Shown here: piece by piece, positions 6,735 through 26,408 of the stretch
Layout: every line of letters begins with the position of its first letter
How positions within the stretch are numbered: position 1 is the stretch's first letter
Source: Leptospiraceae bacterium
GTDB lineage: Bacteria; Spirochaetota; Leptospiria; Leptospirales; Leptospiraceae
Assembly: GCA_020440835.1 (NCBI GenBank)
Contig: JAGRNI010000035.1
Coordinates: 1-54,375, forward strand
Length of the DNA: 54,375 bases
Direction: 5' to 3'
Made by a program: the position numbers and the translations under genes
Notes under the pieces: model-generated
Told to the model about the DNA's origin: nothing
The model's database searches: none
The model's input: only the letters and a program-made list of their open reading frames with translations

Positions 6735-6854
6735 ATTTGTGATAGTATCATTTTTGTAAGAATTTTTGTAGAGTAAGTAAACATTAAATTGACATTTGGT
6801 TATATAAATTATATCAATCAAATATGTTAAGATCCAATTTTTTAGGATTTAGAA

Positions 6855-8558: not shown

Positions 8559-8559
8559 A

Positions 8560-8922
8560 ATGAAAAAAATACTTATTGTAGATGATCAAGCCCCAATGGC
8601 AAAAATTTTAGGTGATATTTTAAAAAAAGGAAATTTTGAAATCCATTTTGCTGTCAACGGGCAGCTAGGAATCAATAAAGCCATAGAATTAAAGCCAGAC
8701 CTCATTATGATGGATATAATGATGCCTGTCAAAACGGGTATAGAAGCAATTAAAGAATTGAAAGATATGAGCGAATTTCAAAATACACCTATGTATCTTG
8801 TTTCAGGTAAAGGTGGAACACGTGATGTAAATCTTGTGAAGGAATTGGGAATAAATGGTTTTATCGCCAAACCCTTTACCCCCAGTATTATATTGGAAGA
8901 GATAATTAAGGTTTTGGCATGA
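8560..8922 (+). CDS. Single-domain response regulator (CheY-like receiver)
   Basis: ILIVDDQ ... MMDIMMP (phospho-acceptor Asp) ... K near the C-terminus. 120 aa. 1-nt gap from the upstream kinase. Confidence 0.8.
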   Translation: MKKILIVDDQAPMAKILGDILKKGNFEIHFAVNGQLGINKAIELKPDLIMMDIMMPVKTGIEAIKELKDMSEFQNTPMYLVSGKGGTRDVNLVKELGINGFIAKPFTPSIILEEIIKVLA

Positions 8923-10853: not shown

Positions 10854-10879
10854 CGTGAGTCTCCTTTAAGACAATCTAA

Positions 10880-10914
10880 TTCCAAAATCAGAGGGTAAAC
10901 ACAGTGGTTTACCC
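10880..10914 (-). terminator. Rho-independent terminator (8-bp stem GGGTAAAC/GTTTACCC plus T-run on the minus strand)
   Basis: Hairpin at 10893-10914 followed on the minus strand by TCTGATTTT. Lies just 3' of the minus-strand ATPase gene. Confidence 0.45.
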
Positions 10915-10956
10915 CTACAGTCCCGAAAAATATGACTCTTGTGGATACACGTGTCT

Positions 10957-12492
10957 CTAAGGCAAGATACCAAATTCCTTTTCTTCATCGTAACGAATCA
11001 AATATGTTTTGATTTCAATTCCATCTATGGTTTCCAAACTTTCTTTCACAAATTCGAGACTCACCATATTGTCCACAAATACCAAATAAATCCCTTCCGT
11101 TATCCCGGATCGCTTGCAATAATACGAAAGTTGAACTTTCCCTTTTTTGAAATTGGATGGACTGTAATACTTTTTTGACTCTATGAGGTACTCATGCCCT
11201 TTCACGTTGATGATCAAATCCGTATTCCCCAATGAAACGTAAGCTTCTCTATAACTCCTTCCCTCTATTTCTTGCAAAAATATACTTATAAACGTCTCAA
11301 AGCTATAGATCATTGCTGCTTCCGGTATGGACTTAAACCTACCTTTTTTGTCTTTCTGCCTGTAAGGGCGAAATCCTCGAAGTTGTATATGGGATTTGTA
11401 GCTATCCATTAGTTTGTCAAAGTTGATTTTTCCGGTATCAGTCAAATAGGCTTCGGAAAGCATATTTTTGGCAATTCGCACACCTTCACCATTCGTGTAA
11501 GGATAAAATGCATCATACAAACGTTTTCGATACAATGGAACCCAAAATTCAACATCAGCATTCTTCCCTTTCTTAATTAATCCGTTTACATGTAAGTCTT
11601 TTATCGCTGGTCTGTCTATTTTAAAAGAAATTGTTTTTTCAGAAAAAAGGATTGATTCTACGAATTTTCTATGCTTACTTGCAACTTTCAGAATATTGGC
11701 TATGTTTTTATCAATTGCTTCCGTTAGATACCAGTCCTCTACTTTGAGATAGTCTTCGTAATCAATTCTTTCTTTGTTTGGATTTGTTTCCACCAATCTC
11801 CTGGCAAACCCGTTCACAAGTCCTGGTTGATTTGCCGTTATCTCACTGATTTTAACTTTCACTTTCTTGTCAAATATTTGACCCGTTTCCGCTTCGTGCT
11901 GTTCGAGGAGTTCCTTTGTTTCTTCATTAGTGAAATAAGGAACGTCCAACTCGTCAGCGATATTAAAAGGACTTGCATTGTCTTGGATAATACCCGCTAT
12001 ATTGGATACGCCTACCAGGATTACACTCTTCAAACAGTGGCTGTTACGAGAATGATAAAGGTTACGAATCGTATGCAAGAATTGGTTGAAAAGGTCAGGG
12101 TTTAGCCCTTCGATTTCATCACAGATAAAAACGTACTTTTGGTCTTGAATGGCTCGAATTTCATCAAATAATTCTACAAAAGTTTTTGAAAATATTTCTC
12201 TTTGCCAGAAATTCAAAAAATCCATTTTTAAAGAGTTGAACAATTCCAATTCCCTAGCCGCTTTAAAATTCTCGAAATTGATGTGGGCGACCTTATAGTC
12301 TTCCTTTTCCAGTTCTATTGCTAAAAATCGAAAGTAGGTGCTTTTTCCCGTTTGTCTTGGTGCCCAGATCGTAAAATACCTGCTTTTGTATACAAGGTCT
12401 TTTCCTTTGGCGACTAAATCCAGCCGATCTAAGGTATAGTGTTCTTTGGGAATATTAGGTCCTGATGTGTTAAAGTAGCGCTTTCCTTTCAT
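10957..12492 (-). CDS. AAA-like ATPase of unknown function (P-loop NTPase with the conserved YFNTSGP..P..HY N-terminus)
   Basis: Walker A APRQTGKST and Walker B-like VFICDEIE. The N-terminal signature is typical of the multicopy predicted AAA-ATPase family. Confidence 0.6.
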   Translation of the reverse strand: MKGKRYFNTSGPNIPKEHYTLDRLDLVAKGKDLVYKSRYFTIWAPRQTGKSTYFRFLAIELEKEDYKVAHINFENFKAARELELFNSLKMDFLNFWQREIFSKTFVELFDEIRAIQDQKYVFICDEIEGLNPDLFNQFLHTIRNLYHSRNSHCLKSVILVGVSNIAGIIQDNASPFNIADELDVPYFTNEETKELLEQHEAETGQIFDKKVKVKISEITANQPGLVNGFARRLVETNPNKERIDYEDYLKVEDWYLTEAIDKNIANILKVASKHRKFVESILFSEKTISFKIDRPAIKDLHVNGLIKKGKNADVEFWVPLYRKRLYDAFYPYTNGEGVRIAKNMLSEAYLTDTGKINFDKLMDSYKSHIQLRGFRPYRQKDKKGRFKSIPEAAMIYSFETFISIFLQEIEGRSYREAYVSLGNTDLIINVKGHEYLIESKKYYSPSNFKKGKVQLSYYCKRSGITEGIYLVFVDNMVSLEFVKESLETIDGIEIKTYLIRYDEEKEFGILP

Positions 12493-12671
12493 GGTGGTTT
12501 TAGTTTGGCTTTTACCGAATATTTGTAAATGAATTTTTAATTTGGGTCTTTGTTAGATGATTTATTTTTTTACCATGGGTAGATATAAAAAAAATATTCT
12601 TGAAAAACATAAACCAAAGACGATAAAGGGTGTATTGGGTAAAATTGTTTTACCGATGTTAGATAAATAGA

Positions 12672-15647
12672 ATGAAGATCAGAGATAAATTATTTCTTAG
12701 TAACACCATTTTTTTATTTATTGTTCTTTTTAGTGGGAGCATATTGTATTTTTCGATTAAGAGTATTGTCCGGAATTATATCAATTCGGAAATGGAAAAC
12801 ATAACCAATAATTCGGTAAAAATTGTAAAATCAGCAATCAACAGCTCAATAAAAAATCACCTTCAATCTGTCGCGAGCAAATCCAAAGAAATAACAAACT
12901 ATTATTACAATGGATTCAAACAAGGAAGAATGTCGGAAAAGGATGCCTTTCAAAAGGTCAAAAATATATTTTTGGATCCTGTGTATAATAAAATAGGTAC
13001 CAGTGGTTATCTGTGCGGTGTTTCCGGTAAAGGAATTTTAGTTATCCATCCAAAGGCAGAAGGAATGGACGCGAGTAAACTTGAATCCATAAAAAAAGCA
13101 ATATCTATGAAAACGGGTTATTTGGAGTATATGTGGAAAAATCCCGGTGAAGAAAAGGAACGTTTAAAGGCGGGAGGATTGGACTATTTTGAACCCTGGG
13201 ATTTAATTGTTTGGGCTTCTTCGTATAAAGAAGAATTTAATTTGTTAGTAAATCCGGATGATTTTCGAGAAGAAATTTTATCCATAAAAATTCAAAAAAG
13301 TGGTTATGTATATATTTTGGATAGTACCGGCAAGGCAATTATACATCCCTTTTTACAGGGACAAAACCTATACAATGTGAAAAGCTCCAAAGGTGTTTTT
13401 TTTATCAGGGAGATGTTAAAACAAAAAAACGGAAAAATATCCTATGCTTGGCAGAATTCCAATGAAACAAGCTTGAGAGATAAAACCGCTTATTTTCAAT
13501 ACATCCCTGAAATTGATTGGTTGCTTGTTGCAGTTAGTTATGATGATGAAATGTATAAAAGCCTAAATATTATCAAAGCTATTATTATAATGACGATCTT
13601 GATTACTTCCGTATTAACCGTATTAATTTCCATAAAAACAAGCTCTATGCTTAGTAAACCTATTCAAATTTTAATGAAGTCCATCCATGAGATGAAAAGT
13701 GGAAATGGACGCATCGCCAAACTAGAAACTAAGGATGAAATCGGAGAACTCGCTACAAAATTCAGTGAACTGACAACTAAAATTCAGAATGCGAACCAAG
13801 AGTTAAACAGACAAAACGAAATTATGAAAAATATGAATTCGGTATCCAGCCTCACGGATGTCATGACTTTTATCATGTATCACATAGAAACGGAATATGG
13901 ACTCAAGGATTTTTGGTTTGTAGTAAAAGATGAAACTTCCAACAGTTTAAAAACCTTTTGTTATGTAACACCGAATATGGAACAAAACGATTCGGAATTC
14001 TTTCAAAATTTCAATCTATCCGTAGAGGAAGATAGCCTATTGTGTGTCACTTATAAAAACCAGAAGATGCTCTATATGCCTATAGAGGAAAGTATGAGTC
14101 TATCTGATATTGATAAAAAGATAGTCCAAGAAGGAAAATTTTCATTTTTTTTGCAAGTCCCATTTGTAGTTTATGAAAAAACAATTGGAATTTTGGTTAT
14201 GCACAAAAAATCCGAAGAGAGAATTTCAGAAGAACTATTGACAAAATTAACTACGTTTTCAGACCAGGTGGCTGGATCCGTTTCCAATTCAAAACTATTC
14301 AAAGAAGTAGAGGTTGCAAAAGAAGAAGCAGAGAAAGCGAGAGAGCTATCTGAAAAAACAAAAGTAGAAATTGAAATCTTAAATGAAATATCCAAAAAAG
14401 TGAACTCGACCAATGATATAAATGAGATATTGGAAACCCTATTTTCCTTTATGATGGCGTTTTTTGGAATAGATAAATTTTGGTTGTTGCTAGTAGATAC
14501 ACAGAGAAATGAGCTTGTTACGTATACTACGGAAAATTTTGAAGAGTTAGGGATGGATGCTATTCAATTTTTTAGCCAATTCAGGCATCCTTTAAATACA
14601 GAACTTGGTTTTTTATATTCAACCTACCGAAAGAAAAAACCATTTTATATAAAGGATTTACGTAGATTCTTTCCCAAATTAAGCGAAATGAATAAGAAAA
14701 TAGCCCAAACATCTAGAATATTATCCTACATCCAGATTCCTTTGATTTTGCAAGACGAGGTAATTGGAATTTTATTAATGGCTAGGAATAATAAAGAACT
14801 GAGTTTATCCAAATTAGATATCACTAAAATTGATAGATTCTGCCAACAAATTTCGGGAGCAATCTATAACTCTAATTTATTAAAAGAAACAATAGAAGCA
14901 AAACTTGAATCGGAAAATCTTTTACATAATATTCTGCCTCCCAAAGTAGCTGAGGAATTAAAAGAGAAAGGTGAAGTTCAACCCGTTCATTATGAATCCG
15001 TTAGTGTGATGTTTACAGACTTCAAAGGTTTTACCAAGGTCGCAGAGAGTATGAGTGTTCAGGATTTGGTCAAGGAATTGGATGGATGTTTCTTTCAATT
15101 TGATGAAATTGCTCAACGTTATAATATGGAAAAGATAAAAACCATAGGGGATTCGTATATGTGTGCCGGGGGATTACCGGAAGTAAACCATACCCATGTT
15201 ATTGACGTTTGCTTGGCAGCTCTTGAAATTCAAGGACTTATGAACCAGATGAAAGTAATCAAAGAGATGATGGGCTTGCCATTTTGGGAGCTTCGACTTG
15301 GGATTCATACCGGTTCTGTGATTGCCGGAGTGGTTGGAAAGAAAAAGTTTGCTTATGATATTTGGGGAGATACAGTAAATACGGCATCACGGATGGAGTC
15401 TAGTGGTGAACCAGGAAGGATCAATATTTCGGGTAGTGTTTATAAAAAGATCAAGTACTTCTTTGAATGTGAATATAGGGGAAAAGTAAAGGCAAAAAAC
15501 AAAGGCGAGATTGATATGTATTTTCTGCATCGTTTAAAAAAGAAATATGCAAAAGACGAAGAAGGAAGAGTACCAAATGATGAATTTAGTGAGATTTATG
15601 ATAAGATAAAAAGAGGTGGAAAGGTGGTAGGTAAAGAGGAAAAATAA
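12672..15647 (+). CDS. Membrane adenylate/guanylate cyclase: Cache-like periplasmic domain, HAMP, 2x GAF, class III cyclase domain
   Basis: C-terminal CYCc motifs (VSVMFTDFKGFT; KTIGDSYM; LRLGIHTGSVIAGVVG; WGDTVNTASRMES). N-terminal TM-periplasmic-TM topology. Confidence 0.85.
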   Translation: MKIRDKLFLSNTIFLFIVLFSGSILYFSIKSIVRNYINSEMENITNNSVKIVKSAINSSIKNHLQSVASKSKEITNYYYNGFKQGRMSEKDAFQKVKNIFLDPVYNKIGTSGYLCGVSGKGILVIHPKAEGMDASKLESIKKAISMKTGYLEYMWKNPGEEKERLKAGGLDYFEPWDLIVWASSYKEEFNLLVNPDDFREEILSIKIQKSGYVYILDSTGKAIIHPFLQGQNLYNVKSSKGVFFIREMLKQKNGKISYAWQNSNETSLRDKTAYFQYIPEIDWLLVAVSYDDEMYKSLNIIKAIIIMTILITSVLTVLISIKTSSMLSKPIQILMKSIHEMKSGNGRIAKLETKDEIGELATKFSELTTKIQNANQELNRQNEIMKNMNSVSSLTDVMTFIMYHIETEYGLKDFWFVVKDETSNSLKTFCYVTPNMEQNDSEFFQNFNLSVEEDSLLCVTYKNQKMLYMPIEESMSLSDIDKKIVQEGKFSFFLQVPFVVYEKTIGILVMHKKSEERISEELLTKLTTFSDQVAGSVSNSKLFKEVEVAKEEAEKARELSEKTKVEIEILNEISKKVNSTNDINEILETLFSFMMAFFGIDKFWLLLVDTQRNELVTYTTENFEELGMDAIQFFSQFRHPLNTELGFLYSTYRKKKPFYIKDLRRFFPKLSEMNKKIAQTSRILSYIQIPLILQDEVIGILLMARNNKELSLSKLDITKIDRFCQQISGAIYNSNLLKETIEAKLESENLLHNILPPKVAEELKEKGEVQPVHYESVSVMFTDFKGFTKVAESMSVQDLVKELDGCFFQFDEIAQRYNMEKIKTIGDSYMCAGGLPEVNHTHVIDVCLAALEIQGLMNQMKVIKEMMGLPFWELRLGIHTGSVIAGVVGKKKFAYDIWGDTVNTASRMESSGEPGRINISGSVYKKIKYFFECEYRGKVKAKNKGEIDMYFLHRLKKKYAKDEEGRVPNDEFSEIYDKIKRGGKVVGKEEK

Positions 15648-15664
15648 AATAATAGACTTGCTGG

Positions 15665-15770
15665 GACTGTGTAAAAAGCCGGTTTTTTGCTCCCTTCGAC
15701 TGCGATCAGGGAGCGTTTGGAGGATTTTCGGACATTGAGCGTAGTCGAAATATCCCTTTTTACACAGCCT
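15665..15770. repeat. REP-like palindromic intergenic element, copy 1
   Basis: Outer 12-bp inverted repeat CTGTGTAAAAAG / CTTTTTACACAG. Inner core CCCTTCGACTGCGATCAGGGAGC...TTCGGACATTGAGCGTAGTCGAAATATCC is shared with 19138-19217. It lies between the convergent 3' ends of the cyclase and traB genes. Confidence 0.5.
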
Positions 15771-15801: not shown

Positions 15802-16962
15802 TTAAGCCAGTATATCGTTTAAAAATTTAAACCATATAAACGTTCCGATACTACTTCCAAGCTGTGGAAGCATAAACACCAAAAAGATTCGAATCACCCT
15901 GTTTTTCCAATAACCCGTAAAGTGTTCCGAATCTTCGGCAATTCTTTCAAAGTCTTCTACCAGAGGTTTCCGTAGCCAAGATTCAACCAGTGCAGCGACC
16001 CAACCCGGTTTCAAAATCGGATTAAAGTTACCCAAAGGTGCAATTACAAATGACAACACAATCGACAAAGGATGAGCAAGTGCAATCAATGCTCCGAGAG
16101 CTGCCAGTGCCCCTTTGACCAGAATCCAAGCCCAGATAGCTTCTACGGTAGCCGTTTCTCCGCCTTTTATATAGGTGTATGCCAATAAAGCAAGCAATAT
16201 AATAGGAAAAATTAACCAAGATAGCTTTTGTCCAAGAGTTTTAGGAGGAATTTTGTTCAAAACATCCAAATCATTCTCTTTTCCTATCTGTTCCATTATA
16301 CCAGAGAGATGACCAGCACCTACTACGGCAAATAATTTCTGAGAATCTTTGGCAGAATTTTTTATATTTTGAGCTAAATATATATCTCTTTCATCAATAA
16401 TAACGTTTTTGATTTGATCATATCGACTTGGTAATTGAGAAAACAGATCTTTTAAAACGTCTTCACTCTTCATTTCCTCGATTTTTTCTTCCGAAACGTC
16501 TTCTTTTACCAACAAAGACGCTATCAATGCAGACAAAAGATACATCTTGGAAAAAAAGCCTACACTTCCCCAAGACCTTTTTAGAGTAGTTTGGATTTCC
16601 CTATCTATAGGAATAACTTTTGAACCGGCATCTTCTCCGCATTTGATTGCCTTTCTCATTTCATCGCCAGGCTTTACATCTCCTTTCCCTAATTTTTTTT
16701 GAAAAGAAGATAAAATCAAATTAGAAAGCAGCAGATACATTTTTCTCTCTTTGAACACCTTAAAAATATCCAATTTTTTCCAGTGTTCAGGGTCTTTTAC
16801 CGCTTTCATTCTTGTTTCACAAAGTTCAACACAAACAGTATCCGGTTTTTCATCTTGAATAATTTTTTCAACGGTATCGACGCTCTGTTTACTTATGTGA
16901 GCTGTCCCTAATATGATGACATCACAATTGCCTATTTTTAATTTCCTAATGGGTTCTTCCAT
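15802..16962 (-). CDS. TraB/GumN (Tiki-like) family protein with C-terminal TM helices
   Basis: N-terminal ILGTAHISKQSV...PDTVCVELCETR signature of the TraB family. Hydrophobic C-terminal third. Confidence 0.75.
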   Translation of the reverse strand: MEEPIRKLKIGNCDVIILGTAHISKQSVDTVEKIIQDEKPDTVCVELCETRMKAVKDPEHWKKLDIFKVFKERKMYLLLSNLILSSFQKKLGKGDVKPGDEMRKAIKCGEDAGSKVIPIDREIQTTLKRSWGSVGFFSKMYLLSALIASLLVKEDVSEEKIEEMKSEDVLKDLFSQLPSRYDQIKNVIIDERDIYLAQNIKNSAKDSQKLFAVVGAGHLSGIMEQIGKENDLDVLNKIPPKTLGQKLSWLIFPIILLALLAYTYIKGGETATVEAIWAWILVKGALAALGALIALAHPLSIVLSFVIAPLGNFNPILKPGWVAALVESWLRKPLVEDFERIAEDSEHFTGYWKNRVIRIFLVFMLPQLGSSIGTFIWFKFLNDILA

Positions 16963-16963: not shown

Positions 16964-18079
16964 CTAACTCCCTAATTTGTTTGTGCTCTGGTAGTTATAC
17001 AAAGCCAATAATTCATACGCAGCTTGAAAAGACGTATGTTTTCCTAAAAATACGCTTTTCTCCATTTCCGGTATTTTACTCTTGATTTGAGGATTGTTGT
17101 AAAAGTTCGACTTCAGGCTTTCTTCAATGGTTTGGTGCATCCAATATTTCGATTGTTCTAAACGCTTTTTTTCAAAGTATCTGTTATTTTTCACTAGCTC
17201 AGAATAAGACAAGATCAAATTCCAAATTTCCTGAATGCCATCCCCTGTCACAGCGGAACAAATTTCTACTCCTGGAATCCATCCGGATTCGGTAGGTGGG
17301 AAAAGGTGTAGAGCTGCGATATAGTCGGATTTTGCCAGATTTGCACTGTTTATGTTAGTTCCATCTGCTTTTGTGATGGCAATTAAATCCGCCATTTCCA
17401 TAATTCCTCTTTTGATCCCTTGTAGCTCGTCTCCGGCTCCGGCAAGCATCAAGAGTAAAAAAAAGTCAACCATGGAATGTACGGCTATTTCCGATTGTCC
17501 TACTCCTACAGTTTCCACAAAAATTGTGTCAAATCCAGCTGCTTCACACAAAACGATGGTTTCTCTTGTTTTTCTGGCAACTCCTCCTAAAGAATTTCCA
17601 GCCGGAGAAGGGCGAATAAAAACGTTCTCATCTTTGGAAATTTCTTCCATCCTTGTTTTGTCTCCCAAAATACTTCCTTTGGACAACTGGCTGGTCGGAT
17701 CGATTGCTAAAACACACAATTTTCGTTTTTGACCTACCATAAATTTTCCAAGGGTCTCAATAAAGGAACTTTTTCCTACCCCAGGAACACCGGTAATCCC
17801 AATACGCATTGACTTGCCGGAATAAGGTAAACAAAGTCCGATTATTTTTTGGGCAATATCCGTATGATCAGGGTGAGTACTTTCGATAAGCGTTATAGCT
17901 TGGCTCAGGATAACACGATTTCCTGCAAGGATTCCTTCTTCGTATTCTTCCGGAGCAAGCTTACGCTTTCTTTTGTAAGAAGCTGCAAATTTTGAGTTAA
18001 TCGCTTCCGGTTGTGCAACTCCAGGTTGCACAAATAATGCAGATTCCTTGCCTTCGCTCATACAAAAACCTTTATCCAA
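16964..18079 (-). CDS. meaB: Methylmalonyl-CoA mutase-associated G3E GTPase MeaB/ArgK
   Basis: P-loop GITGVPGVGKSSFIETLG plus the downstream G3E family motifs. 1-nt gap to traB, same strand. Confidence 0.85.
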   Translation of the reverse strand: MDKGFCMSEGKESALFVQPGVAQPEAINSKFAASYKRKRKLAPEEYEEGILAGNRVILSQAITLIESTHPDHTDIAQKIIGLCLPYSGKSMRIGITGVPGVGKSSFIETLGKFMVGQKRKLCVLAIDPTSQLSKGSILGDKTRMEEISKDENVFIRPSPAGNSLGGVARKTRETIVLCEAAGFDTIFVETVGVGQSEIAVHSMVDFFLLLMLAGAGDELQGIKRGIMEMADLIAITKADGTNINSANLAKSDYIAALHLFPPTESGWIPGVEICSAVTGDGIQEIWNLILSYSELVKNNRYFEKKRLEQSKYWMHQTIEESLKSNFYNNPQIKSKIPEMEKSVFLGKHTSFQAAYELLALYNYQSTNKLGS

Positions 18080-18236: not shown

Positions 18237-19130
18237 TCACCTCTTAATCGTTTTATTGATTCGTATTCCAAAGTCTTTGGATGAAATATTAGGAAAGTTC
18301 GGTTTCGGAACATCCTCAATTCTAACGATCACCCAATTGTTTTTTTTGGCATATTCGGCAATGCTTTCTTTTTGATCTTCTGCTATGTGCTCATCCGGAT
18401 TTACGATCAATTTCAACCCGCGGCTAAATTCTATCATTTCTTTATCACCTCGACTATTCCCACCTACAACCAAAGGAACCTCTTGCACAAAAGTCTCAAT
18501 GGCTTCTTTTTTCCCATGATCTTGGGGAACGGGTGGCACTATCTCGGAAGTAATACTGCCATTACGAATAATGGATTTCACCCCTACGACATTAGTTAAA
18601 GGAATATGCAATTCTTGGCTTAAAAATTCCTGGTACAATGCCTCCGGGCTTGCCGTAATTATCCAAACCTCAAATCCGTTTTCTTTTAGCTTACCGATCA
18701 GGCTTACCATTGGTCTGAAAACTTTCCCTTTGTAGTATTTGTAATAACATTCAACGCCCAACTTGCGTAAAGATTTTACTGAATCTCCTTCAAAAAATTT
18801 GACCCGAAGCTGTACATATTCAATGGACACATTGGAAAGACCTTGCATTCTCTTGATTATTGCTGGCTTTTTGCTTTTGTCCTTTTTGGCGATTTCATAG
18901 AGACATTCATCAGCAAGATAATGAGGAGCTTGTCCGAGAACGGTACCATCACCATCAAAAACGGCAACCTTTCGTTCTTTTACATTTTTTACGCTTTTCA
19001 AGAACTCTTCAATCTTAGCGTTAGTCTCTTTGTCAAACTCAAGTTTTGTTAATCTGGTAGGTTCCTTGTAACAACCAAGTAAGAGTAAACAAAACATAAT
19101 AATTATTCTTTTCATTATTAACATCACCAT
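18237..19130 (-). CDS. HAD-IB family phosphatase-like lipoprotein
   Basis: Lipobox LLLGC. HAD motif I FDGDGTV, motif II ITAS, motif IV GNSRGDKEM. Confidence 0.65.
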   Translation of the reverse strand: MVMLIMKRIIIMFCLLLLGCYKEPTRLTKLEFDKETNAKIEEFLKSVKNVKERKVAVFDGDGTVLGQAPHYLADECLYEIAKKDKSKKPAIIKRMQGLSNVSIEYVQLRVKFFEGDSVKSLRKLGVECYYKYYKGKVFRPMVSLIGKLKENGFEVWIITASPEALYQEFLSQELHIPLTNVVGVKSIIRNGSITSEIVPPVPQDHGKKEAIETFVQEVPLVVGGNSRGDKEMIEFSRGLKLIVNPDEHIAEDQKESIAEYAKKNNWVIVRIEDVPKPNFPNISSKDFGIRINKTIKR

Positions 19131-19137: not shown

Positions 19138-19217
19138 GCACCCTTCGACTACGCTCAGGGAACACTCTTCGACACGATGAGGGAGCATTTCGGACATTGA
19201 GCATAGTCGAAATGTCC
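19138..19217. repeat. REP-like palindromic element, copy 2 (with a partial internal duplication)
   Basis: CCCTTCGACTACGCTCAGGGAAC...TTCGGACATTGAGCATAGTCGAAATGTCC. Long-range complement TCGACTACG/CATAGTCGA. Stem GGACAT/ATGTCC. Lies immediately 3' of the MVP-like gene stop. Confidence 0.5.
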
Positions 19218-19218: not shown

Positions 19219-21717
19219 TCAATCCTTTTTCTTTTGGATAATTTTTCCGACTGTATCACTTCCAATGTTAAGGAAAACACCTTCTAGTTTGGTCCCTTTT
19301 AAGAGCTTGGCAAAAACATCTGCAACGGATTCTCCTCCCAAAATAGACAAGGGTGCCATAGAAGATGCCACTTTTTGCAGAAGTTCTTTGTCAGAGAATG
19401 CTTGCAGAGCTGCAATCAAATCCGGTGAAATAGCCTTTGCCTTTTCAACAACAGCCTTCAACTCGGTTTCGATCTCTTTTGCATAAAGTTCATATTCTTT
19501 TTCTTTGAAATAGTATTCTTGCTCATTGGAACGTTTTTCCCTTTGAAGCGTTAACTCGTTAATTTTTCCAAGCAGTTCTTCCTCTTTGAACTCTCCGTCT
19601 AGTTTCAGTTCTTTTGTCTTTCTTTCGGAATCAATTTTGGCAATTTCCAATTCTACCTTTTTCTCCAGTTCTTCTTTTTCATAACCAAAGATGGATTTAT
19701 TGGTTTCATACTGGGCTTCGGCGGTTTGCTGCTTGATAGATTCTAAGAATTTTGTAATTTCTAATTTGGATTTTTCTTTCATTAAAATGGCAGACTCTTG
19801 GATCAAAGACTGTTGAGCTTCCATTAGCAATTGAGCAATTTTTGTATCTTTAATGGCTACGTTCACAACTTCCACATCATAAACAAACATATTGTTTTCT
19901 CCAAACATATACCCTGTTTTCAAGTCTTCGCCCAAAATGGTTTTTCGAATAATGTCAAAAGAATTCAGATAAAAATCATTGATCGTATAGGTTTTTACAA
20001 CCGAACTTAAAATAGAACGAAACCTATCCGTTAAGAATTTTACATAGTTTTCTACATTAAACCATTTGGAAGAGTCATCTTGGAAGTTCAAACGGTAGGA
20101 TACTTTTAGTTCTAATGTAACGAAATCTTTTGTTTCCACATCAAGAGTATCAGACACTTTATTGTTCAAAACTCTCAAATAAACGTCATGGAACAGTTTG
20201 GTATCCGTTTTAGGATTCCCACAGGATAGAGAAAATACTTGTAATTCCTCATCGTACTCGAGCAAATACGTTCTGGGTCCGGAAATTACCTTACGTTCTC
20301 CCGTCTTTCCCACAACCATAATGGCATATCCCGTCCAAACATTAACAGCAACAGCTCCTTCATACTTAGTGTCCAGTGTAATGGTTCTTGGCGGAGTGTA
20401 TAGAGACCTTCTATCAAAAGAATCTGCGGAAAAAGCGTTTCCGGTTTCCTCGTCCCAAGAGTCCGTAAATGGTTCTTCAAAATCTTGTGCAGGTAGAGCC
20501 ATTTGAGGAGATGCCGGTCTCTCCTTTAACTTTTTTAATTCCTTTTTTAATTCTTCGTTCACTTCCTGGGCTTTCTGATTGCCGGGAAACCAAAGGGAAA
20601 CCTGTCTTTTTTCTAATATTCTTTTTACGATAACTTCTTTTCTGGGGTCGGGTAAAAACATATCGGGACCTTTCTGCAAAAATACATCTCCCGTCAATCT
20701 ATTCATAACGTACCTTGCTTCTCCTTCCGGAATAGCAACGGCGTAGTGAAGTTCGTTATCTCCGTATTTGATAACAGCGTGTTCTTTGCGAGGAAAATAG
20801 ATCATCATGTCTTTCCCCGTAAGGAATAGCTCTTCGCCCTCTTTGTAGTCTTTTCCATTTTCCGAATAAGGTGCAATTACCTTAATGTATATTCCTTTAA
20901 TCTCGCTAAGTTCAATCGCCTTGAATTTTCGCTTGCCTTCCACTTCTATAAAGGATTCGGTAGGCTCCGGGAACACAACCTCCGGTCCTTTTACATACCT
21001 TTTGTTTCCACTTTCATCCAGCAAGATGCAATATTCCAGTCTCTCTAAGGTTACGGCTTTGCGAATGTATTCCCCTTTCTCACCTTTGACAACTTCAATT
21101 CCTGTTGGAGGAATATAAAAAGATATGTTTGTTCCTTTGATTACGAGCTGTTTTCCCAAAGAAAGTTTACTCACGTCAATACTCTGAGTTTCCGTTGTAC
21201 CGGCGGTCTGGCTTTTGATTACGGCTTTTTCCCAGTTTTCTTGAGCTGCCTTTTCGTCGTAAACTCGAACCACAAGATATTGATTAGACCTCAGGTAATG
21301 TCCTTTGATAACATTTACCATCTGCCCGGGCCACAGAGGAAAAGAAACCGGACCGGGTATGCTTACCTTATGACCAACGTTTAATTCAACCATGTTGCTG
21401 ACAGTTCCCGTTTTGGGAGAAGAGTTGTCTTTAGCCGGATTTTTTAGTGTAAGATACCAGCCTTCCGGAGAGATGGCAAAAGTCTGAATGGATTGTTCCA
21501 GTGTACACTTCTCAAACCTCTTGCTATCTTGTCGAAATAAAATGGGTTGATCTGTGTTGGACAAACTCGCTTTGTAAGGACCAACATACACATTGATATT
21601 CCCTTTGGTCTGGTCGGATATAAATGCAAATTCATTAGGGGACAAAATAAGGTCTCTTTCTCTTCTTTCTTCAGGCATTTCTTTTTCCTTGTTCAAATTT
21701 TGGTTCATTCTTTTCAA
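19219..21717 (-). CDS. Major vault protein (MVP) homologue: MVP-type N-terminal repeat, shoulder domain and C-terminal coiled-coil cap-helix region
   Basis: N-terminal LSPNEFAFISDQTKGNINVYVGPYKASLSNTDQPILF parallels vertebrate MVP [38 protein letters not shown]. ..LKVSYRLNFQD..WFNVENYVKFLTDRFRSILSSVVKTYTINDFYLNSFDIIRKTILG parallels the MVP shoulder ..[56 protein letters not shown]. A long E/K-rich coiled coil follows, and the tail ..LIAALQAFSDKELLQKV..ADVFAKLLKG resembles the MVP C-terminus. Confidence 0.7.
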   Translation of the reverse strand: MKRMNQNLNKEKEMPEERRERDLILSPNEFAFISDQTKGNINVYVGPYKASLSNTDQPILFRQDSKRFEKCTLEQSIQTFAISPEGWYLTLKNPAKDNSSPKTGTVSNMVELNVGHKVSIPGPVSFPLWPGQMVNVIKGHYLRSNQYLVVRVYDEKAAQENWEKAVIKSQTAGTTETQSIDVSKLSLGKQLVIKGTNISFYIPPTGIEVVKGEKGEYIRKAVTLERLEYCILLDESGNKRYVKGPEVVFPEPTESFIEVEGKRKFKAIELSEIKGIYIKVIAPYSENGKDYKEGEELFLTGKDMMIYFPRKEHAVIKYGDNELHYAVAIPEGEARYVMNRLTGDVFLQKGPDMFLPDPRKEVIVKRILEKRQVSLWFPGNQKAQEVNEELKKELKKLKERPASPQMALPAQDFEEPFTDSWDEETGNAFSADSFDRRSLYTPPRTITLDTKYEGAVAVNVWTGYAIMVVGKTGERKVISGPRTYLLEYDEELQVFSLSCGNPKTDTKLFHDVYLRVLNNKVSDTLDVETKDFVTLELKVSYRLNFQDDSSKWFNVENYVKFLTDRFRSILSSVVKTYTINDFYLNSFDIIRKTILGEDLKTGYMFGENNMFVYDVEVVNVAIKDTKIAQLLMEAQQSLIQESAILMKEKSKLEITKFLESIKQQTAEAQYETNKSIFGYEKEELEKKVELEIAKIDSERKTKELKLDGEFKEEELLGKINELTLQREKRSNEQEYYFKEKEYELYAKEIETELKAVVEKAKAISPDLIAALQAFSDKELLQKVASSMAPLSILGGESVADVFAKLLKGTKLEGVFLNIGSDTVGKIIQKKKD

Positions 21718-21865
21718 TTTTTTTACGGTAATTCTTAACTTTGGGTAACAAGATATTCTTATAAACCATGACTCATTTTATGTCAAATGTCTTTAGAAAA
21801 TAATTTGTAAATATTTCAAAAAATATCTTGCAAGCATATTATCCGGTTATAATAAATGTAACTTT

Positions 21866-22801
21866 ATGCAAGATATAAAAAGCTATATAAAGAGATATTA
21901 TAAAGAAGAGTTTTCTCTGGGACACTTTTTAACAACAGGTTTTTTCTTGATTTTTTTAGTAATTTTCAACTATAGTTTTCAATTCGAAGAAGTATTTGTA
22001 AGGCATCCTAATCGAGTTTACCAAGTACTCCGATATTTTGTTTTTTACGGAATTCCTTTTTGTATTTCAATCTTTAGCTATAGCTATTTCCATAAGAATA
22101 CATCTTTTTTTAAAAAATACTCTTTCTGGTCATTATGTATTTTTATGCTCTTAATTTTAAGTTTACCCAAATCTTGTCATTTCCGTTTGGAAACCGTTTT
22201 AAACTTTGTACCTCTGAAATTGTCTCTCTTTTTTTTTAAGTTATCCGATTCTATTAGTCTATTCTTCCTTTGGTTTTGTATACCAGCTATTTATTGGTTT
22301 TTTGTAGACAGAACAAATGTAAAACTATACGGATTTTCTATAAAAAATTTTCAACCCTATCCATATTTACTTTTCGTATTGTTGGCAACTCCTTTTATTT
22401 TTGGTGTGTCTTTTTTGGACGATTTTTCACGTAGCTATCCCATCTATCGAACCCAATACGCAGCCCAGTATCTGCAAGTATCTCCTGTTGTCCCCGTATT
22501 GGCTTTTGAACTTTCTTATGGGTTAGCTTTTGTCGCTACCGAATTTTTCTTTCGAGGCTTTTTGTTGTTTACGTTTGAAAAACATTTGGGCAAAGGAATC
22601 CTTTTGCCAATGGTAGTTTTGTATTGTTTGATCCATTTCCAAAAGCCTCTATTAGAAGCAATAACGTCCGTTTTTGGTGGTCTCTTGCTAGGAATCATAG
22701 CTTTGTATTCAAGGAGTATCTACGGTGGCATTATAGCTCACATAGGGCTCGCTTGGACGATGGATTTAGCCGGATATTATCAATTACGAACTTTGCCCTA
22801 A
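21866..22801 (+). CDS. Polytopic membrane protein, probable CPBP (CAAX-protease/Abi) family
   Basis: At least 6 TM helices. Degenerate motif 1 ATEFFFRGFLL, then ..LIHFQ.. and ..IAHIGLAWTMD resembling CPBP motifs 2 and 3. Confidence 0.5.
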   Translation: MQDIKSYIKRYYKEEFSLGHFLTTGFFLIFLVIFNYSFQFEEVFVRHPNRVYQVLRYFVFYGIPFCISIFSYSYFHKNTSFFKKYSFWSLCIFMLLILSLPKSCHFRLETVLNFVPLKLSLFFFKLSDSISLFFLWFCIPAIYWFFVDRTNVKLYGFSIKNFQPYPYLLFVLLATPFIFGVSFLDDFSRSYPIYRTQYAAQYLQVSPVVPVLAFELSYGLAFVATEFFFRGFLLFTFEKHLGKGILLPMVVLYCLIHFQKPLLEAITSVFGGLLLGIIALYSRSIYGGIIAHIGLAWTMDLAGYYQLRTLP

Positions 22802-23940: not shown

Positions 23941-24708
23941 TTAAAACTTCCACCTGCTATTATGCTGTATAATCTTTATGTAAGGATTTTTTTCTTTAAA
24001 GGTCTCTATCTGTTTTTGAGGTATCTTCAAATTATCAATATCCACATACACCAAATACTTTAGGTCATAAAGAGGTGAAACATCAGAAACTTTAGTATTT
24101 CCCAATTGTATATCAATCAACTGTGTGGAATTTTCAATAGGTTTTATGTTAGAAACCGCCGTATTGCGTATATCCAAGTGCCTAAGCCATGGAAAATGAC
24201 GAACAAAATCTACGGAAGTAACCTTTGTACTGCTTAATCCGAGCTTAGATATGTTTTTTAAGTTTGGAATGGAATCAAGGCTAACAACCTGCGTATAGTT
24301 TAAAAAAAGCGTATGCAAGTTTTTATTTTTATTCAAAGGAGCTAAGTCAGACACAGAAGTATGATTGACGTTTAAAAATCTCAATTTGCCAAATTGAGAA
24401 ATCGGACTCAAATCGGAAAGTGTCCTACAAGAAATTTCTAAAGACTCCATATTGGGAAACTGTTTTAATTGCTGCAAGTCGATACAAACCTTATCATCAA
24501 AACCAATCCACTTAGTGTTGGGATGAAAAGTAAAGGTTTTCCCGTCCGTCGCTTTTACGGGAAGAAATTCAGGGCTAGTGGGAAACTTTGCGATCAAACA
24601 GTTAAACAAGAAGACTAAAGGTAATCCCACCAACAATAATAAAGTTTTTGATATTTTAAGAGTAAGCATCATGGTGAACCTGTCGAACCATGTCAAGGTT
24701 TTATCCAT
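23941..24708 (-). CDS. Leucine-rich repeat protein (secreted or membrane-anchored)
   Basis: N-terminal hydrophobic anchor. About 7 tandem 22-residue LRRs (L..L.L..T.V.DLSPL). Confidence 0.8.
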   Translation of the reverse strand: MDKTLTWFDRFTMMLTLKISKTLLLLVGLPLVFLFNCLIAKFPTSPEFLPVKATDGKTFTFHPNTKWIGFDDKVCIDLQQLKQFPNMESLEISCRTLSDLSPISQFGKLRFLNVNHTSVSDLAPLNKNKNLHTLFLNYTQVVSLDSIPNLKNISKLGLSSTKVTSVDFVRHFPWLRHLDIRNTAVSNIKPIENSTQLIDIQLGNTKVSDVSPLYDLKYLVYVDIDNLKIPQKQIETFKEKNPYIKIIQHNSRWKF

Positions 24709-26408
24709 ATTTCCACCACATCCTTTAATTTTTGTAAATCAAACGGTTTAAACAGATAAGCATCCATTTCCGATTCTACAAACGCCTTTTTGTTGGTTTC
24801 CAAGATATCCGCAGTCATGGCTATAATGGGAATATGTCCTAAAAAGGATGCCTTTTTAACTTTCCTTTCATTTTGCCGAATATGCTTTGCCGTTGTGTAT
24901 CCATCCATTTCAGGCATTTGCAAGTCCAAAAAAATGAGATCGTACTTTTGTTTTTGATAAAAACCTAACGCTTCCTTTCCGCTATTGGCAATATCCACTG
25001 ATATTCCAATATGCTCCAACATCTTTTGTGCTATAATTTGGTTTACAATATTGTCATCTGCCACCAAAACCCTTACTTCCCTTCCTGCCTTCTGTCCATA
25101 ATTAATTTCTTTTTGGTCATTGCTCAATCGAATGTCTGAGTCAATCTTAGCCTTTTTATCCAATTTCAGTGTAAACCAAAATTCAGTTCCCGGTCTACCG
25201 GTTTCATTTTTGAACATAATGGCAGGGCTAAAAAATCCTATTTCTCCTCCCATTTGCTCTACAAGTTGCTTGGAAATAGTAGTCCCTAATCCCGTTCCAC
25301 CAAACTTCTTTTGGATTGAATCATCCAATTGCCTAAAGCTTAAAAAAACGTCTTTATGTTTGTCTTTGGGGATTCCTATTCCGGAATCAACAATTGTAAA
25401 TTTAAGCAAGTAAAAGTCGTCTTGCTCTAAACGGGCATTATTTTCTATTACGCAAATAATCCACACACCACCAGACTCTGTAAATTTAATAGCATTACCC
25501 AATAAATTATTTACTACCTGTTGTATACGCAAAGAATCTCCCATAACTTTATACTCAAAATTCGGAATTTGGACATCAAACCGAATATTTTTATTTTTCG
25601 CCAGAATCTCGAACGGCTGAATTGTGGATTGCAAAGCCAAATCCAAATCAAACTCTGCATATTCAAAGCTTAGCTTACCCATTTCAATTTTTGTAAGGTC
25701 TAAGATATCATTTAAGAGTTTTAAGAGTATGGAACCGGTAGATTTTAAAATACTTACGTATCTGGTTTGTTCTTCATTCAAACTTGTTGATAAAAGCAAA
25801 TCCGTAATACCCAAAATGCCATGCATAGGAGTTCGTATGTCATGACTCATATTTGCTAAAAACTGCGATTTGTAATGATTTGCCTGTTCGGCAGACTCTT
25901 TCGCCTTTTTTAACTCCGTTTCAAATTCCTTTCTTTTTGTGATGTCTGTAGCAGCAAAAACGACCATAGCTCGACTATCCAAAACAGTACTTTTTAATAC
26001 AGATGTCCGACCTTCAAACCATTTTACTCCAGATAGTATAGGAATTTGGTATTCTATAATTTGCTTTTTCCCAGTTTGAATCGTTTTATGAATCGTTTCC
26101 AAAAACAGAATAGCCTTATTTTTAGGCACAACATCTGACAACAATTTCCCTCTGAGGTCACTCAGATACTTATAGTGTTGTGTTTCTTCATTTGTAAAAA
26201 TGTCTATATATCTACCGTTTTCATCAAAAATAAATATTATATCAGGTAGAGCGCTGATAAAAGCGTAAAATTTCTCTTCGTTTTCCCTCAGATGCTCGAT
26301 TTTGTTGTTTAATTTTTCTTCAATTTTCCGAATAAATCGACATATATCATCAAATCCTTTCCCATTTCGACAATACGCTTTTAAAACCTGAATTTCTTCC
26401 TCTGTCAT
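24693..26408 (-). CDS. Hybrid sensor histidine kinase/response regulator (PAS, HisKA, HATPase_c, REC)
   Basis: H-box MSHDIRTPMHGILG. G-boxes DSGIGI / GGTGLG. C-terminal receiver VLVADDN...FLDLQMPEMDG. Overlaps the LRR gene start by 16 nt. Confidence 0.85.
   Translation of the reverse strand: MTEEEIQVLKAYCRNGKGFDDICRFIRKIEEKLNNKIEHLRENEEKFYAFISALPDIIFIFDENGRYIDIFTNEETQHYKYLSDLRGKLLSDVVPKNKAILFLETIHKTIQTGKKQIIEYQIPILSGVKWFEGRTSVLKSTVLDSRAMVVFAATDITKRKEFETELKKAKESAEQANHYKSQFLANMSHDIRTPMHGILGITDLLLSTSLNEEQTRYVSILKSTGSILLKLLNDILDLTKIEMGKLSFEYAEFDLDLALQSTIQPFEILAKNKNIRFDVQIPNFEYKVMGDSLRIQQVVNNLLGNAIKFTESGGVWIICVIENNARLEQDDFYLLKFTIVDSGIGIPKDKHKDVFLSFRQLDDSIQKKFGGTGLGTTISKQLVEQMGGEIGFFSPAIMFKNETGRPGTEFWFTLKLDKKAKIDSDIRLSNDQKEINYGQKAGREVRVLVADDNIVNQIIAQKMLEHIGISVDIANSGKEALGFYQKQKYDLIFLDLQMPEMDGYTTAKHIRQNERKVKKASFLGHIPIIAMTADILETNKKAFVESEMDAYLFKPFDLQKLKDVVEIWIKP

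What the first reader, a model, noticed from the sequence alone, without database searches (positions are those of the whole stretch)
19219..21717. Vault-shell (major vault protein) homologue encoded in a bacterial chromosome
The 832-aa product aligns with eukaryotic MVP over its whole architecture, and my recollection of rat MVP matches at all three levels. The N-terminal repeat aligns (..P.EFAFISDQTKGNINVYVGPYKAS...DQPILF against ..[32 protein letters not shown]). The shoulder domain aligns convincingly (WFNVENYVKFLTDRFRSILSSVVKTYTINDFYLNSFDIIRKTILG against [45 protein letters not shown]). A long E/K-rich coiled coil follows, equivalent to the cap-helix that drives vault half-shell assembly. 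Vaults are a eukaryotic ribonucleoprotein nanocompartment. A full-length bacterial homologue would mean either an uncharacterised prokaryotic cage-forming system or an ancient lateral transfer. There are no TEP1 or vPARP partners nearby. It is flanked 3' by a REP-like element and followed by a HAD-phosphatase lipoprotein gene. It lacks a signal peptide, so a cytoplasmic assembly is expected.
Basis: partly seen in the sequence, partly recalled or inferred. Interest (0 to 1): 0.85.

Follow-up and report, generated by a model that had tools for sequence, protein, structure and literature searches.

The report
Bacterial major-vault-protein homologue, known family
This Leptospiraceae gene really does encode a full-length relative of the eukaryotic vault-shell protein, but it belongs to a large bacterial family that was described from sequence over a decade ago and has never been studied experimentally, so it is a new member and not a discovery.

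Summary
The ORF is real. It is a genuine homologue of major vault protein (MVP). Pfam MVP_shoulder (3e-23) and Vault_3 (1e-8) pass their cut-offs. A family profile hits only MVP chains in the PDB (3e-26). Profile-profile alignment to vertebrate MVP runs end to end (99.6 %, E 2e-24). Foldseek ranks MVP first for the whole model (1e-20), and every significant hit for the N-terminal half is MVP (R1–R7 crystals, 7e-11). SPFH cage proteins match only the shoulder and helix, about 14 orders of magnitude weaker.

It differs from eukaryotic MVP in four ways: about 7 repeat modules instead of 9, about 25 % identity, no conservation of the human NAD+ pocket, and no TEP1, PARP or vault RNA in the window. 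No neighbour is conserved across 81 loci.

The family is large (at least 368 species genomes; 628 clusters at 50 % identity), and its tree mostly follows phyla. It was already reported in silico (Daly 2013; Sokolskyi 2019), including Microscilla marina A1ZGE7, which is 53 % identical. My searches found no experimental work. The likely function is a self-assembling cytoplasmic vault-like shell; this is inferred, not shown. Verdict: new member of a known kind, modest interest.

The parts
19219..21678 (-). Residue ranges in the entries below use 819-aa numbering.
   Evidence: ORF. Start choice. Pfam MVP_shoulder 3e-23, Vault_3 1e-8, Band_7 5e-8. PDB profile search finds only MVP, 3e-26. hhalign end-to-end, 99.6 %, E 2e-24.
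20203..21657 (-). N-terminal β-repeat array, residues about 8–492. There are about 7 vault-type repeat modules: R1 8–52, R2 53–118, R3 119–192, R4 193–256, R5 257–310, R6 311–385 including two helices, and R7 437–492.
   Evidence: The N-half AF2 model's 16 significant Foldseek hits are all MVP; murine R1–R7 crystals reach E 7e-11 and non-MVP entries start at E about 0.5. An internal repeat has offset 106 = 2 x 53. Vault_3 matches residues 458–494 in 54/54 family members. R1, R4–R7 are the most conserved regions. Module boundaries are my reading of the DSSP strands, uncertain by about one module.
20371..20523 (-). Disordered acidic linker inside the R8-equivalent module (residues about 386–436). 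It occupies the place of the disordered R8 loop of rat MVP.
   Evidence: pLDDT below 50 in both models. Lowest conservation apart from the tails (0.47). Aligned opposite rat residues about 427–455.
19846..20202 (-). Shoulder domain (SPFH/Band-7 fold), residues about 493–611.
   Evidence: Pfam MVP_shoulder covers residues 505–611, E 2.9e-23. pLDDT 75–89. Foldseek finds SPFH cage proteins at 1e-6 to 1e-4.
19438..19845 (-). Cap-helix equivalent: a single uninterrupted helix, residues 612–747, rich in E and K.
   Evidence: DSSP helix 612–747 at pLDDT 80–87. Composition. Aligned to the rat cap-helix, residues about 647–802. Sequence poorly conserved (0.51).
19279..19437 (-). Conserved C-terminal segment, residues 748–800 (…SPDLIAALQAF.DK…MAPL.ILGG.S…), aligned to the MVP cap-ring region.
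   Evidence: Invariant A749, P752, Q759, F761, M774, P776, G781, G782. Conservation 0.79. Aligned to rat 803–845. Modelled at low confidence (pLDDT about 40–45).
21758..21786 (-). Candidate sigma-70-type promoter of the MVP-like gene: TTGACA, 17 nt, TATAAG, about 80 nt upstream of the ATG.
   Evidence: Read directly from the sequence. The tool's scan does not list it because the last base of the -10 hexamer is G. Inference only.
19139..19216 (.). Palindromic 'REP-like' intergenic repeat between the MVP-like stop codon and the HAD lipoprotein gene.
   Evidence: Arms TTCGACTACGCTCA / TGAGCATAGTCGAA, 93 % complementary. Second copy at about 15685–15755. RNA fold -31.6 kcal/mol, z = -1.84. Absent from 83 related loci. 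Its role for the gene is unknown.

Best explanation
The gene encodes a soluble cytoplasmic member of the bacterial MVP-like family, a true homologue of the eukaryotic vault-shell protein.

Shown here: it has the same ordered parts as MVP. These are an N-terminal array of small β-repeat domains, an SPFH-type shoulder, one very long charged helix, and a conserved C-terminal segment.

Inferred by homology with vaults and the wider SPFH cage proteins: many copies pack side by side through the repeat and shoulder domains. Their long helices form a closed helical barrel capped by the C-terminal segment, giving a dome (a 'half vault'). Two domes may dock through the strongly conserved N-terminal repeat R1 to make a closed hollow particle, probably shorter than the eukaryotic vault because the array has about 7 repeats instead of 9.

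The gene is a stand-alone transcription unit with no dedicated partner gene. Any cargo or ligand is therefore unknown and is not the eukaryotic TEP1/PARP4/vault-RNA set. The cellular role is unknown. The most defensible guess is a housekeeping or stress-related sequestration or scaffold compartment, not a defence island or mobile-element function.
For: Homology: Pfam MVP_shoulder 3e-23 and Vault_3 1e-8, both above cut-off and found in 54/54 family members. phmmer against the PDB gives MVP only at significant E-values, 3e-12. The family profile gives MVP only, 3e-26, with a second collinear stretch over R6–R8. hhalign against verified rat MVP gives 99.2 %, E 9e-20, over R6 to the cap-ring. Against a tetrapod MVP profile it gives 99.6 %, E 2e-24, bacterial 1–811 against rat 1–840.

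Structure: the full-length model's top 12 Foldseek hits are MVP (1e-20 to 1e-17, 750–914 columns), and SPFH cages follow at 1e-6 or weaker. All 16 significant hits of the N-half model are MVP.

Cytoplasmic and soluble: no signal peptide, no TM segment.

Shell-like constraint: the β-repeat wall, R1 and the C-terminal segment are the most conserved regions across phyla (0.79–0.84), and the helix is the least (0.51). Identity between phyla is 53–69 % over 816 columns.

Resident gene: it nests in the Leptospiraceae clade, and its GC content matches its surroundings.

No partners: no neighbour family is shared by more than 15 of 81 loci, and that one is hybrid histidine kinases.

Prior in-silico work predicted the MVP fold and lateral docking for family members, including Microscilla marina A1ZGE7 (PMC3762200), which is 53 % identical to this protein.
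Against: No oligomer was modelled or observed, so assembly into a cage is inferred purely from homology. The AF2 models are of low to moderate confidence in the repeat array (mean pLDDT 59–61) and low in the C-terminal segment. Repeats R1–R3 are only marginally similar to rat by sequence (P = 0.003). The repeat count differs from MVP, so particle geometry cannot be transferred. The residues of the human NAD+/ADP-ribose pocket are not conserved: only K506 and P505 are kept out of about 11 pocket residues that could be mapped (PMC12280208, mapped). No vault partner or vault RNA is present. My literature searches found no experimental paper on any bacterial MVP.
Confidence: 0.62

Rival explanations
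1. It is an ordinary SPFH/Band-7 (flotillin-, HflK/C- or stomatin-like) membrane-microdomain scaffold with a β-rich N-terminal extension. The resemblance to MVP would then reflect only the shared SPFH clan and a coiled coil.
For: Pfam Band_7 matches residues 453–637 at 5e-8, above its cut-off, and hits 33/54 family members. Foldseek finds flotillin, prohibitin, HflK/C, stomatin and QmcA at 1e-6 to 1e-4. NCBI names some members 'SPFH domain-containing protein'.
Against: MVP_shoulder scores far better than Band_7 (82.5 against 33.6 bits). MVP hits are about 14 orders of magnitude stronger than SPFH hits and cover the full length, while SPFH hits cover only 200–390 columns. All significant hits of the N-terminal 445 residues are MVP repeats. 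There is no TM helix, hairpin or lipidation site for membrane anchoring.
Confidence: 0.05
2. The protein has the MVP fold but does not form a closed cage. It would act as an open ring, a half-dome, a filament or a scaffold, for example on the inner face of the membrane or around another machine, as several SPFH relatives do.
For: There are fewer repeats than in MVP. The cap-helix sequence is poorly conserved and shows no heptad pattern. The C-terminal segment is modelled at low confidence. No oligomer evidence exists. The Asgard MVP homologue, with five repeats, was modelled only as a 10-mer cup at modest ipTM (PMC12962969).
Against: R1, the domain that joins the two halves in eukaryotic vaults, is among the most conserved regions (0.84). 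The C-terminal cap-ring-like segment is conserved too (0.79). The protein has no membrane-targeting feature, and no partner gene is conserved.
Confidence: 0.25
3. The gene is a recent lateral acquisition from a eukaryote or a phage, or contaminating eukaryotic DNA in the assembly, and not a resident bacterial gene.
For: The literature discusses horizontal transfer between eukaryotes and bacteria for MVP (PMC3762200). Phage-encoded MVP homologues exist (bioRxiv 10.1101/2023.11.10.566534). An integrase fragment lies at the window start (119–706), but 18 kb away.
Against: Identity to vertebrate MVP is only about 25 %, against 66–85 % to other Leptospiraceae and 53–56 % to other phyla. The tree mostly follows phyla and the window sequence nests in the Leptospiraceae clade. 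The gene's GC content matches its neighbours. It has a Shine-Dalgarno-like motif and is embedded among typical bacterial genes. There are no PHROG or PADLOC hits.
Confidence: 0.03

Closest known systems
Bacterial MVP-like proteins described in silico: Microscilla marina A1ZGE7, Saprospira grandis H6L4P8, Enhygromyxa salina A0A0C2D5V5, Corallococcus H8MNI3 and others (Daly et al. 2013, PMC3762200; Sokolskyi 2019, bioRxiv 10.1101/872010)
   Same: The same family. The window protein is 53 % identical over 98 % of its length to the M. marina protein (P0106) and 53 % to the E. salina locus (L059). It has the same Pfam content (shoulder, Vault_3 and Band_7), a similar length (about 820–850 aa), and belongs to the 'chemotroph' clade that carries the Band-7 signature.
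   Different: The host lineage is Leptospiraceae (Spirochaetota). The papers I read do not mention it, and there were no hits for 'Spirochaet' or 'Leptospir' in the 2023 phage preprint. Spirochaetes swim with periplasmic flagella (general knowledge), so this member does not fit the proposed link between bacterial MVP and gliding motility. The Leptospiraceae clade is also the most divergent one in my sample (53–54 % to all others).
Eukaryotic major vault protein (rat, human and rabbit MVP; PDB 4V60, 4HL8, 7PKZ, 9BW5, 9Z4W)
   Same: The same domain order, collinear from end to end: β-repeat array, SPFH-type shoulder, long cap-helix and cap-ring-like tail. A disordered loop sits at the same place in the R8-equivalent module. 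The protein is cytoplasmic and soluble.
   Different: About 25 % identity. About 7 repeat modules instead of 9, with rat R1–R5 (272 aa) matched by 207 aa. The Pfam Vault, Vault_2 and Vault_4 models that hit all eukaryotic MVPs do not hit it. The NAD+/ADP-ribose 'keyhole' pocket residues are not conserved. No TEP1, PARP4 or vault RNA is present. A bacterial-specific invariant motif (F.R…TPPRTITLDTKYEGAV, residues 421–443) has no rat counterpart.
SPFH-family cages (HflK/C, flotillin, prohibitin, stomatin, erlin, QmcA)
   Same: A homologous shoulder (SPFH) domain followed by a long helix that, in those proteins, forms a closed helical barrel and cap (Foldseek 1e-6 to 1e-4). The principle of building a dome from one repeated subunit is shared.
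   Different: Those proteins are membrane-anchored and lack the N-terminal repeat array. This protein has no membrane anchor and has about 490 residues of MVP-type repeats.
Asgard archaeal MVP homologues (Nat Microbiol 2026, PMC12962969)
   Same: Prokaryotic full-length MVP homologues with repeats, shoulder and cap-helix, known only from prediction.
   Different: The Asgard representative has five repeats and partly groups with eukaryotic MVPs. The present family is bacterial, has about seven repeats, and is far more widespread. I made no direct comparison.

Membership tests
Major vault protein superfamily (MVP sensu lato) | MVP shoulder domain (Pfam PF11978) | tested here: met
   E 3e-23, 82.5 bits against a cut-off of 25, covering profile positions 2–118 of 118. 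Found in 54/54 family members.
Major vault protein superfamily (MVP sensu lato) | N-terminal array of vault-type β-repeat domains | tested here: met
   Vault_3 at 1e-8, above its cut-off. All 16 significant Foldseek hits of the N-half model are MVP, with the R1–R7 crystals at 7e-11. The most N-terminal repeats are only marginal by sequence.
Major vault protein superfamily (MVP sensu lato) | Long cap-helix after the shoulder, followed by a conserved cap-ring segment | tested here: met
   Helix 612–747 at pLDDT 80–87. It is aligned to the rat cap-helix, and the C-terminal segment to rat 803–845. The fold of the C-terminal segment is not confidently modelled.
Canonical eukaryotic MVP / vault particle | Nine repeat domains R1–R9, recognised by Pfam Vault, Vault_2, Vault_3 and Vault_4 | tested here: not met
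   Only Vault_3 is detected; PF01505 is weak (best E 0.078) in 4/54 members, whereas all 120 listed eukaryotic MVPs carry Vault and Vault_2, and all but one carry Vault_3 and Vault_4 as well. I count about 7 modules, uncertain by about one.
Canonical eukaryotic MVP / vault particle | Assembly into a 39-fold half-shell and a 78-mer barrel | not testable with these tools
   No multimer prediction or experiment was available. Only regional conservation consistent with lateral and waist contacts could be shown.
Canonical eukaryotic MVP / vault particle | Association with TEP1, PARP4 (vPARP) and vault RNA | tested here: not met
   No TROVE, NACHT, PARP or VIT/vWA protein among the 35 window ORFs scanned, out of 39 of at least 80 aa. 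No Rfam family, including vault RNA, in 54 kb. No conserved neighbour in 81 loci. The rest of the genome was not available.
Canonical eukaryotic MVP / vault particle | NAD+/ADP-ribose 'keyhole' pocket in the shoulder (human R504, K506, R507, H509, R511, D521, F522, W545; PMC12280208) | tested here: not met
   By the profile alignment, only K506→K490 (and P505→P489) are kept. The others change: R504→N, R507→T, H509→K, R511→F, L517→R, D521→N, F522→K, W545→L. This rests on alignment alone, with no structural superposition.
Bacterial MVP-like family (Daly 2013; Sokolskyi 2019) | Full-length similarity to the named members, with the shoulder, Vault_3 and Band_7 signature and a length of about 820–850 aa | tested here: met
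   53 % identity over 98 % of the query to the M. marina ATCC 23134 protein (P0106). 52–70 % over nearly the whole query in 80 species genomes, including Enhygromyxa salina. Band_7 passes its cut-off.
SPFH/Band-7 membrane scaffolds | Membrane anchor (N-terminal TM segment or hairpin) with an SPFH domain near the N-terminus | tested here: not met
   No hydrophobic segment (maximum KD 1.13). The SPFH-type domain lies at residues about 493–611, after about 490 residues of repeats.

The most novel reading that the evidence does not exclude
The bacterial MVP-like family, of which this gene is a Leptospiraceae member, builds genuine vault-like hollow protein particles in the bacterial cytoplasm. That would be a widespread, never-observed class of prokaryotic nanocompartment, with about 7 repeats per subunit and its own cargo and ligand chemistry. 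It could be the prokaryotic ancestor, or a sister lineage, of the eukaryotic vault. The idea is already in the literature as a prediction (PMC3762200). What remains open is the experimental demonstration and the function.
Probability: 0.5. Interest if true: 0.7.

Novelty: new member of a known kind. Interest (0 to 1): 0.3.

Why it matters
The function of vaults has been an open question since 1986, and their evolutionary origin is still debated. A large, strongly conserved bacterial family with the same architecture gives a genetically tractable way into both questions. My survey suggests the family is much bigger and taxonomically broader than the 'few Bacteria' cited in the literature: at least 368 species genomes in more than ten phyla, and 628 clusters at 50 % identity. 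It is inherited largely vertically within phyla, has no dedicated operon partner, and occurs in non-gliding lineages such as Leptospiraceae. This particular locus adds only one more member and no functional clue of its own.

Tried and rejected
(1) NCBIfam, PADLOC and PHROGs gave no hit for the protein, so no curated bacterial name and no defence or phage annotation exists.

(2) A look-up of the exact protein P0001 in the contig index found nothing on record. Context therefore came from homologues.

(3) Neighbourhood conservation: an all-against-all clustering of ORFs from 81 loci found no partner. The only recurring family was hybrid histidine kinases, which are promiscuous.

(4) The full-length AF2 model had low overall confidence (pLDDT 58.9, pTM 0.26). 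TM-scores and rmsd against MVP are therefore meaningless (0.17; 70–88 Å), and I relied on Foldseek E-values, alignment length and the exclusivity of hits. A second model of the N-half with 120 sequences improved only R1.

(5) Sequence-only comparison of residues 1–215 with rat R1–R5 was marginal. The exact repeat correspondence of R1–R3 could not be resolved, and the two hhalign runs place the gaps differently.

(6) The promoter and terminator scan was no better than chance. The REP-like element is not a canonical terminator (no T-run) and is absent from 83 related loci.

(7) The TolA relationship proposed by Sokolskyi: no TolA family appeared in Pfam at E ≤ 1. I regard it as coiled-coil compositional similarity.

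(8) The heptad test on the long helix showed no clear a/d periodicity.

(9) I considered and rejected contamination, recent horizontal transfer, and a plain SPFH identity (see rival explanations).
Full report
OBSERVATION. The window carries an uninterrupted ORF on the minus strand from 21717 (TTG) to 19219, 832 codons. The likely start is the ATG at 21678, giving 819 aa. It is preceded by AAGGA 8 nt upstream, M1 is invariant in the family alignment, and an identical 819-aa protein is deposited at NCBI as 'hypothetical protein H7A23_19210 [Leptospiraceae bacterium]' (P0001). Residue numbers below use the 819-aa numbering. GC content at the gene (0.37–0.38) matches its surroundings.

IS IT AN MVP HOMOLOGUE?

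Pfam gives MVP_shoulder at 3e-23 (82.5 bits, cut-off 25, nearly the whole model), Vault_3 at 1.2e-8 (cut-off passed) and Band_7 at 5e-8. The first two are found in all 54 family members tested. phmmer against all PDB sequences finds six distinct MVP sequences (E 3e-12 to 2e-10) and nothing else significant. A profile built from 54 family members hits only MVP (E 3e-26). Its main stretch covers R9, the shoulder and the cap-helix, and a second, collinear stretch covers about R6–R8.

hhalign of the family profile against it gives 99.2 % probability, E 9e-20, over 522 columns, bacterial 208–792 against rat 273–845. That spans R6 to the cap-ring. Against a 20-sequence tetrapod MVP profile the alignment becomes end to end: bacterial 1–811 against rat 1–840, 99.6 %, E 2e-24, 25 % identity.

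STRUCTURE. The full-length AF2 model is confident only for the shoulder and the single 136-residue helix (pLDDT 75–89), and it is weak in the repeat array. Even so, its top 12 Foldseek hits in the PDB are full-length MVP chains (E 2e-20 to 3e-17, about 750–914 columns). SPFH cage proteins (flotillin, prohibitin, HflK/C, stomatin, erlin, QmcA) come next at 6e-7 or weaker and cover only 200–390 columns. TM-scores are uninformative because the model does not fix the relative orientation of the domains.

I modelled the N-terminal 445 residues separately with 120 sequences. That model gives 16 hits at E ≤ 1e-3, and all of them are MVP. The murine R1–R7 crystal structures rank first (7e-11, about 425 columns). 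The only other entry below E 0.5 is a 9 Å draft vault shell (E 0.076), and non-MVP entries start at E about 0.5.

ANATOMY. From the strands of the models, an internal repeat with an offset of 106 = 2 x 53 residues and the recurring G-x-x-h-h-x-G-P-x-x-h-h-P hairpin motif, I count about seven repeat modules: 8–52, 53–118, 119–192, 193–256, 257–310, 311–385 with two helices, and 437–492. A disordered acidic linker (386–436) sits where rat R8 has its disordered loop. The shoulder follows (about 493–611), then the helix (612–747; 22 % E, 16 % K) and a conserved C-terminal segment (748–800) aligned to the rat cap-ring.

Rat R1–R5 (272 aa) is matched by only 207 residues, and the Pfam Vault, Vault_2 and Vault_4 models that hit eukaryotic MVPs do not hit this family. 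The module count is uncertain by about one.

There is no signal peptide or hydrophobic segment (maximum KD 1.13).

Mapping the human NAD+/ADP-ribose pocket (PMC12280208) through the alignment shows that only K506 and P505 are conserved. The pocket as defined in eukaryotes is therefore not retained.

DISTRIBUTION AND EVOLUTION. The word-indexed search returned more than 6,500 proteins (90 % clusters) at E ≤ 1e-3. The top 120 are nearly all 800–850 aa, ≥ 53 % identical and cover ≥ 95 % of the query, and JGI names many of them 'major vault protein'. The exhaustive search of 50 %-identity representatives gives 628 clusters at E ≤ 1e-30 and 962 at ≤ 1e-10.

A scan of one genome per species found 368 genomes with a relative. 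These include Leptospiraceae, Cytophagales/Microscillaceae, Myxococcota, Chloroflexota, Sericytochromatia, Riflebacteria/Ozemobacteraceae, Desulfobacterota, Planctomycetota, Gemmatimonadota, Vulcanimicrobiota and others.

A neighbour-joining tree of 74 of these proteins mostly follows phyla. The window protein nests within a Leptospiraceae clade (68 % identity within the clade, 53–54 % to all others). The gene is therefore a resident lineage gene and not a recent import.

Conservation is highest in R1, R4–R7 and the C-terminal segment (0.79–0.84). It is lowest in the helix (0.51) and the linker (0.47). That is what one expects if the repeat wall and the two ends make specific contacts.

CONTEXT. 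The neighbours are MeaB (16964–18079), a HAD-family lipoprotein (18237–19130), a divergently transcribed Rce1/CPBP-type protease (21866–22801), an acyltransferase-3 protein, an LRR protein and a hybrid histidine kinase. The rest of the window is ordinary chromosome: signalling proteins, MetH, HemE, CorA and acyl-CoA dehydrogenases. No TROVE, NACHT, PARP or vWA protein, no tRNA and no Rfam family, including vault RNA, is present. Clustering ORFs from 81 loci found no conserved neighbour. PADLOC and PHROGs give nothing. The gene thus looks like a stand-alone unit. A TTGACA-17-TATAAG promoter-like site lies at 21786–21758 (read).

WHAT IS KNOWN. Bacterial MVP homologues were reported by Daly et al. 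(PMC3595041; PMC3762200). They named M. marina A1ZGE7, S. grandis H6L4P8 and others, and predicted an MVP fold and docking ability. Sokolskyi (bioRxiv 10.1101/872010) noted the Band-7 signature of the 'chemotroph' clade and a link with gliding motility. A 2023 preprint reported phage copies (10.1101/2023.11.10.566534). Nat Microbiol 2026 (PMC12962969) added Asgard homologues and stated that bacterial ones were known 'in only a few Bacteria'. Three literature searches found no experimental study of a bacterial MVP, and one paper still states that vaults are absent from prokaryotes (PMC9778704 abstract). The window protein is 53 % identical over 98 % of its length to the M. marina protein.

MECHANISM. 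Shown: homology and domain order, a soluble cytoplasmic character, the conservation pattern, and the absence of partners. Inferred: self-assembly into a vault-like dome or barrel through lateral repeat and shoulder contacts, a helical barrel and a C-terminal cap, with R1-mediated docking of two halves. Unknown: stoichiometry, cargo and physiological role. I give the cage model about 0.6, an open ring or scaffold about 0.25, and the remaining readings little.

VERDICT. The observation and the homology interpretation are correct. The novelty is not: this is a new (Leptospiraceae) member of an already described, experimentally uncharacterised family. Modest additions from this work are the size and breadth of the family, its largely vertical inheritance, the shorter repeat array, the non-conserved NAD+ pocket, the lack of operon partners, and its occurrence in a non-gliding lineage.

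Noticed in passing
window 19139-19216 and about 15685-15755: A palindromic intergenic repeat of about 70–80 nt (core TTTCGACTAYGCTCAATGTCCGAAA … CCCTGAKCGYAGTCGAAGGG). One copy lies just after the MVP-like stop codon and one just upstream of the TraB/GumN-family gene (15802–16962, minus strand). An 18-mer from it has 2 hits where 0 are expected by chance. It is absent from 83 related loci, so it seems specific to this genome or lineage (a REP- or MITE-like element).
   Followed up: partly
window 43049-51115 (-): A giant 2,688-aa ORF with only PD40 (WD40-like β-propeller) and TPR matches in Pfam, followed by a 210-aa ORF with a weak DUF1318 match (51097–51729). Function unknown.
   Followed up: no
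window 119-706 (+) and 1377-3605 (+): A short (195 aa) phage-integrase-family ORF at the window edge, followed by a RecD-like SF1 helicase (AAA_19/AAA_30/UvrD_C_2/SH3_13). This may be the border of a mobile or defence element. It lies 18 kb from the MVP-like gene.
   Followed up: no
window 10957-12492 (-): A 511-aa AAA_35/AAA_22 ATPase of unclear function. It has no PADLOC match.
   Followed up: partly
window 4957-15647 and 24693-26408, 30846-32147, 35387-36181: An unusually dense set of sensory proteins: 7TMR-DISM sensors, Cache-domain histidine kinases, a Cache-GAF adenylate/guanylate cyclase of 991 aa, and hybrid kinases.
   Followed up: no
window 51998-54088: A cluster of small ORFs, including a PIN-domain protein (52257–52643) overlapping a 123-aa upstream ORF (52625–52996), which looks like a toxin-antitoxin pair. 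Three further 90–107-aa ORFs follow on the other strand; the one I scanned (53242–53565) had no Pfam match.
   Followed up: no
MVP-like protein residues 421-443 (window about 20350-20418, minus strand): A motif that is nearly invariant across phyla, F.R…(F)TPPRTITLDTKYEGAV, lies directly after the disordered linker and has no counterpart in rat MVP. It may be a family-specific structural or interaction element.
   Followed up: partly
loci L019, L034 (Desulfonema), L051 (Gemmatimonadaceae), L057 (Bacillota), L067 (Synergistia): A few MVP-like sequences group with a different phylum in the tree: Desulfonema within Chloroflexota, Gemmatimonadaceae within Polyangiaceae, and Bacillota and Synergistia MAGs with Vulcanimicrobiota. 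These are either occasional lateral transfers or MAG mis-binning.
   Followed up: no
locus L002 18348-22504 (Microscilla marina): Seven tandem paralogous ORFs of about 132–135 aa with no Pfam hit lie 6–10 kb downstream of the M. marina MVP-like gene. They are not seen at other loci.
   Followed up: no
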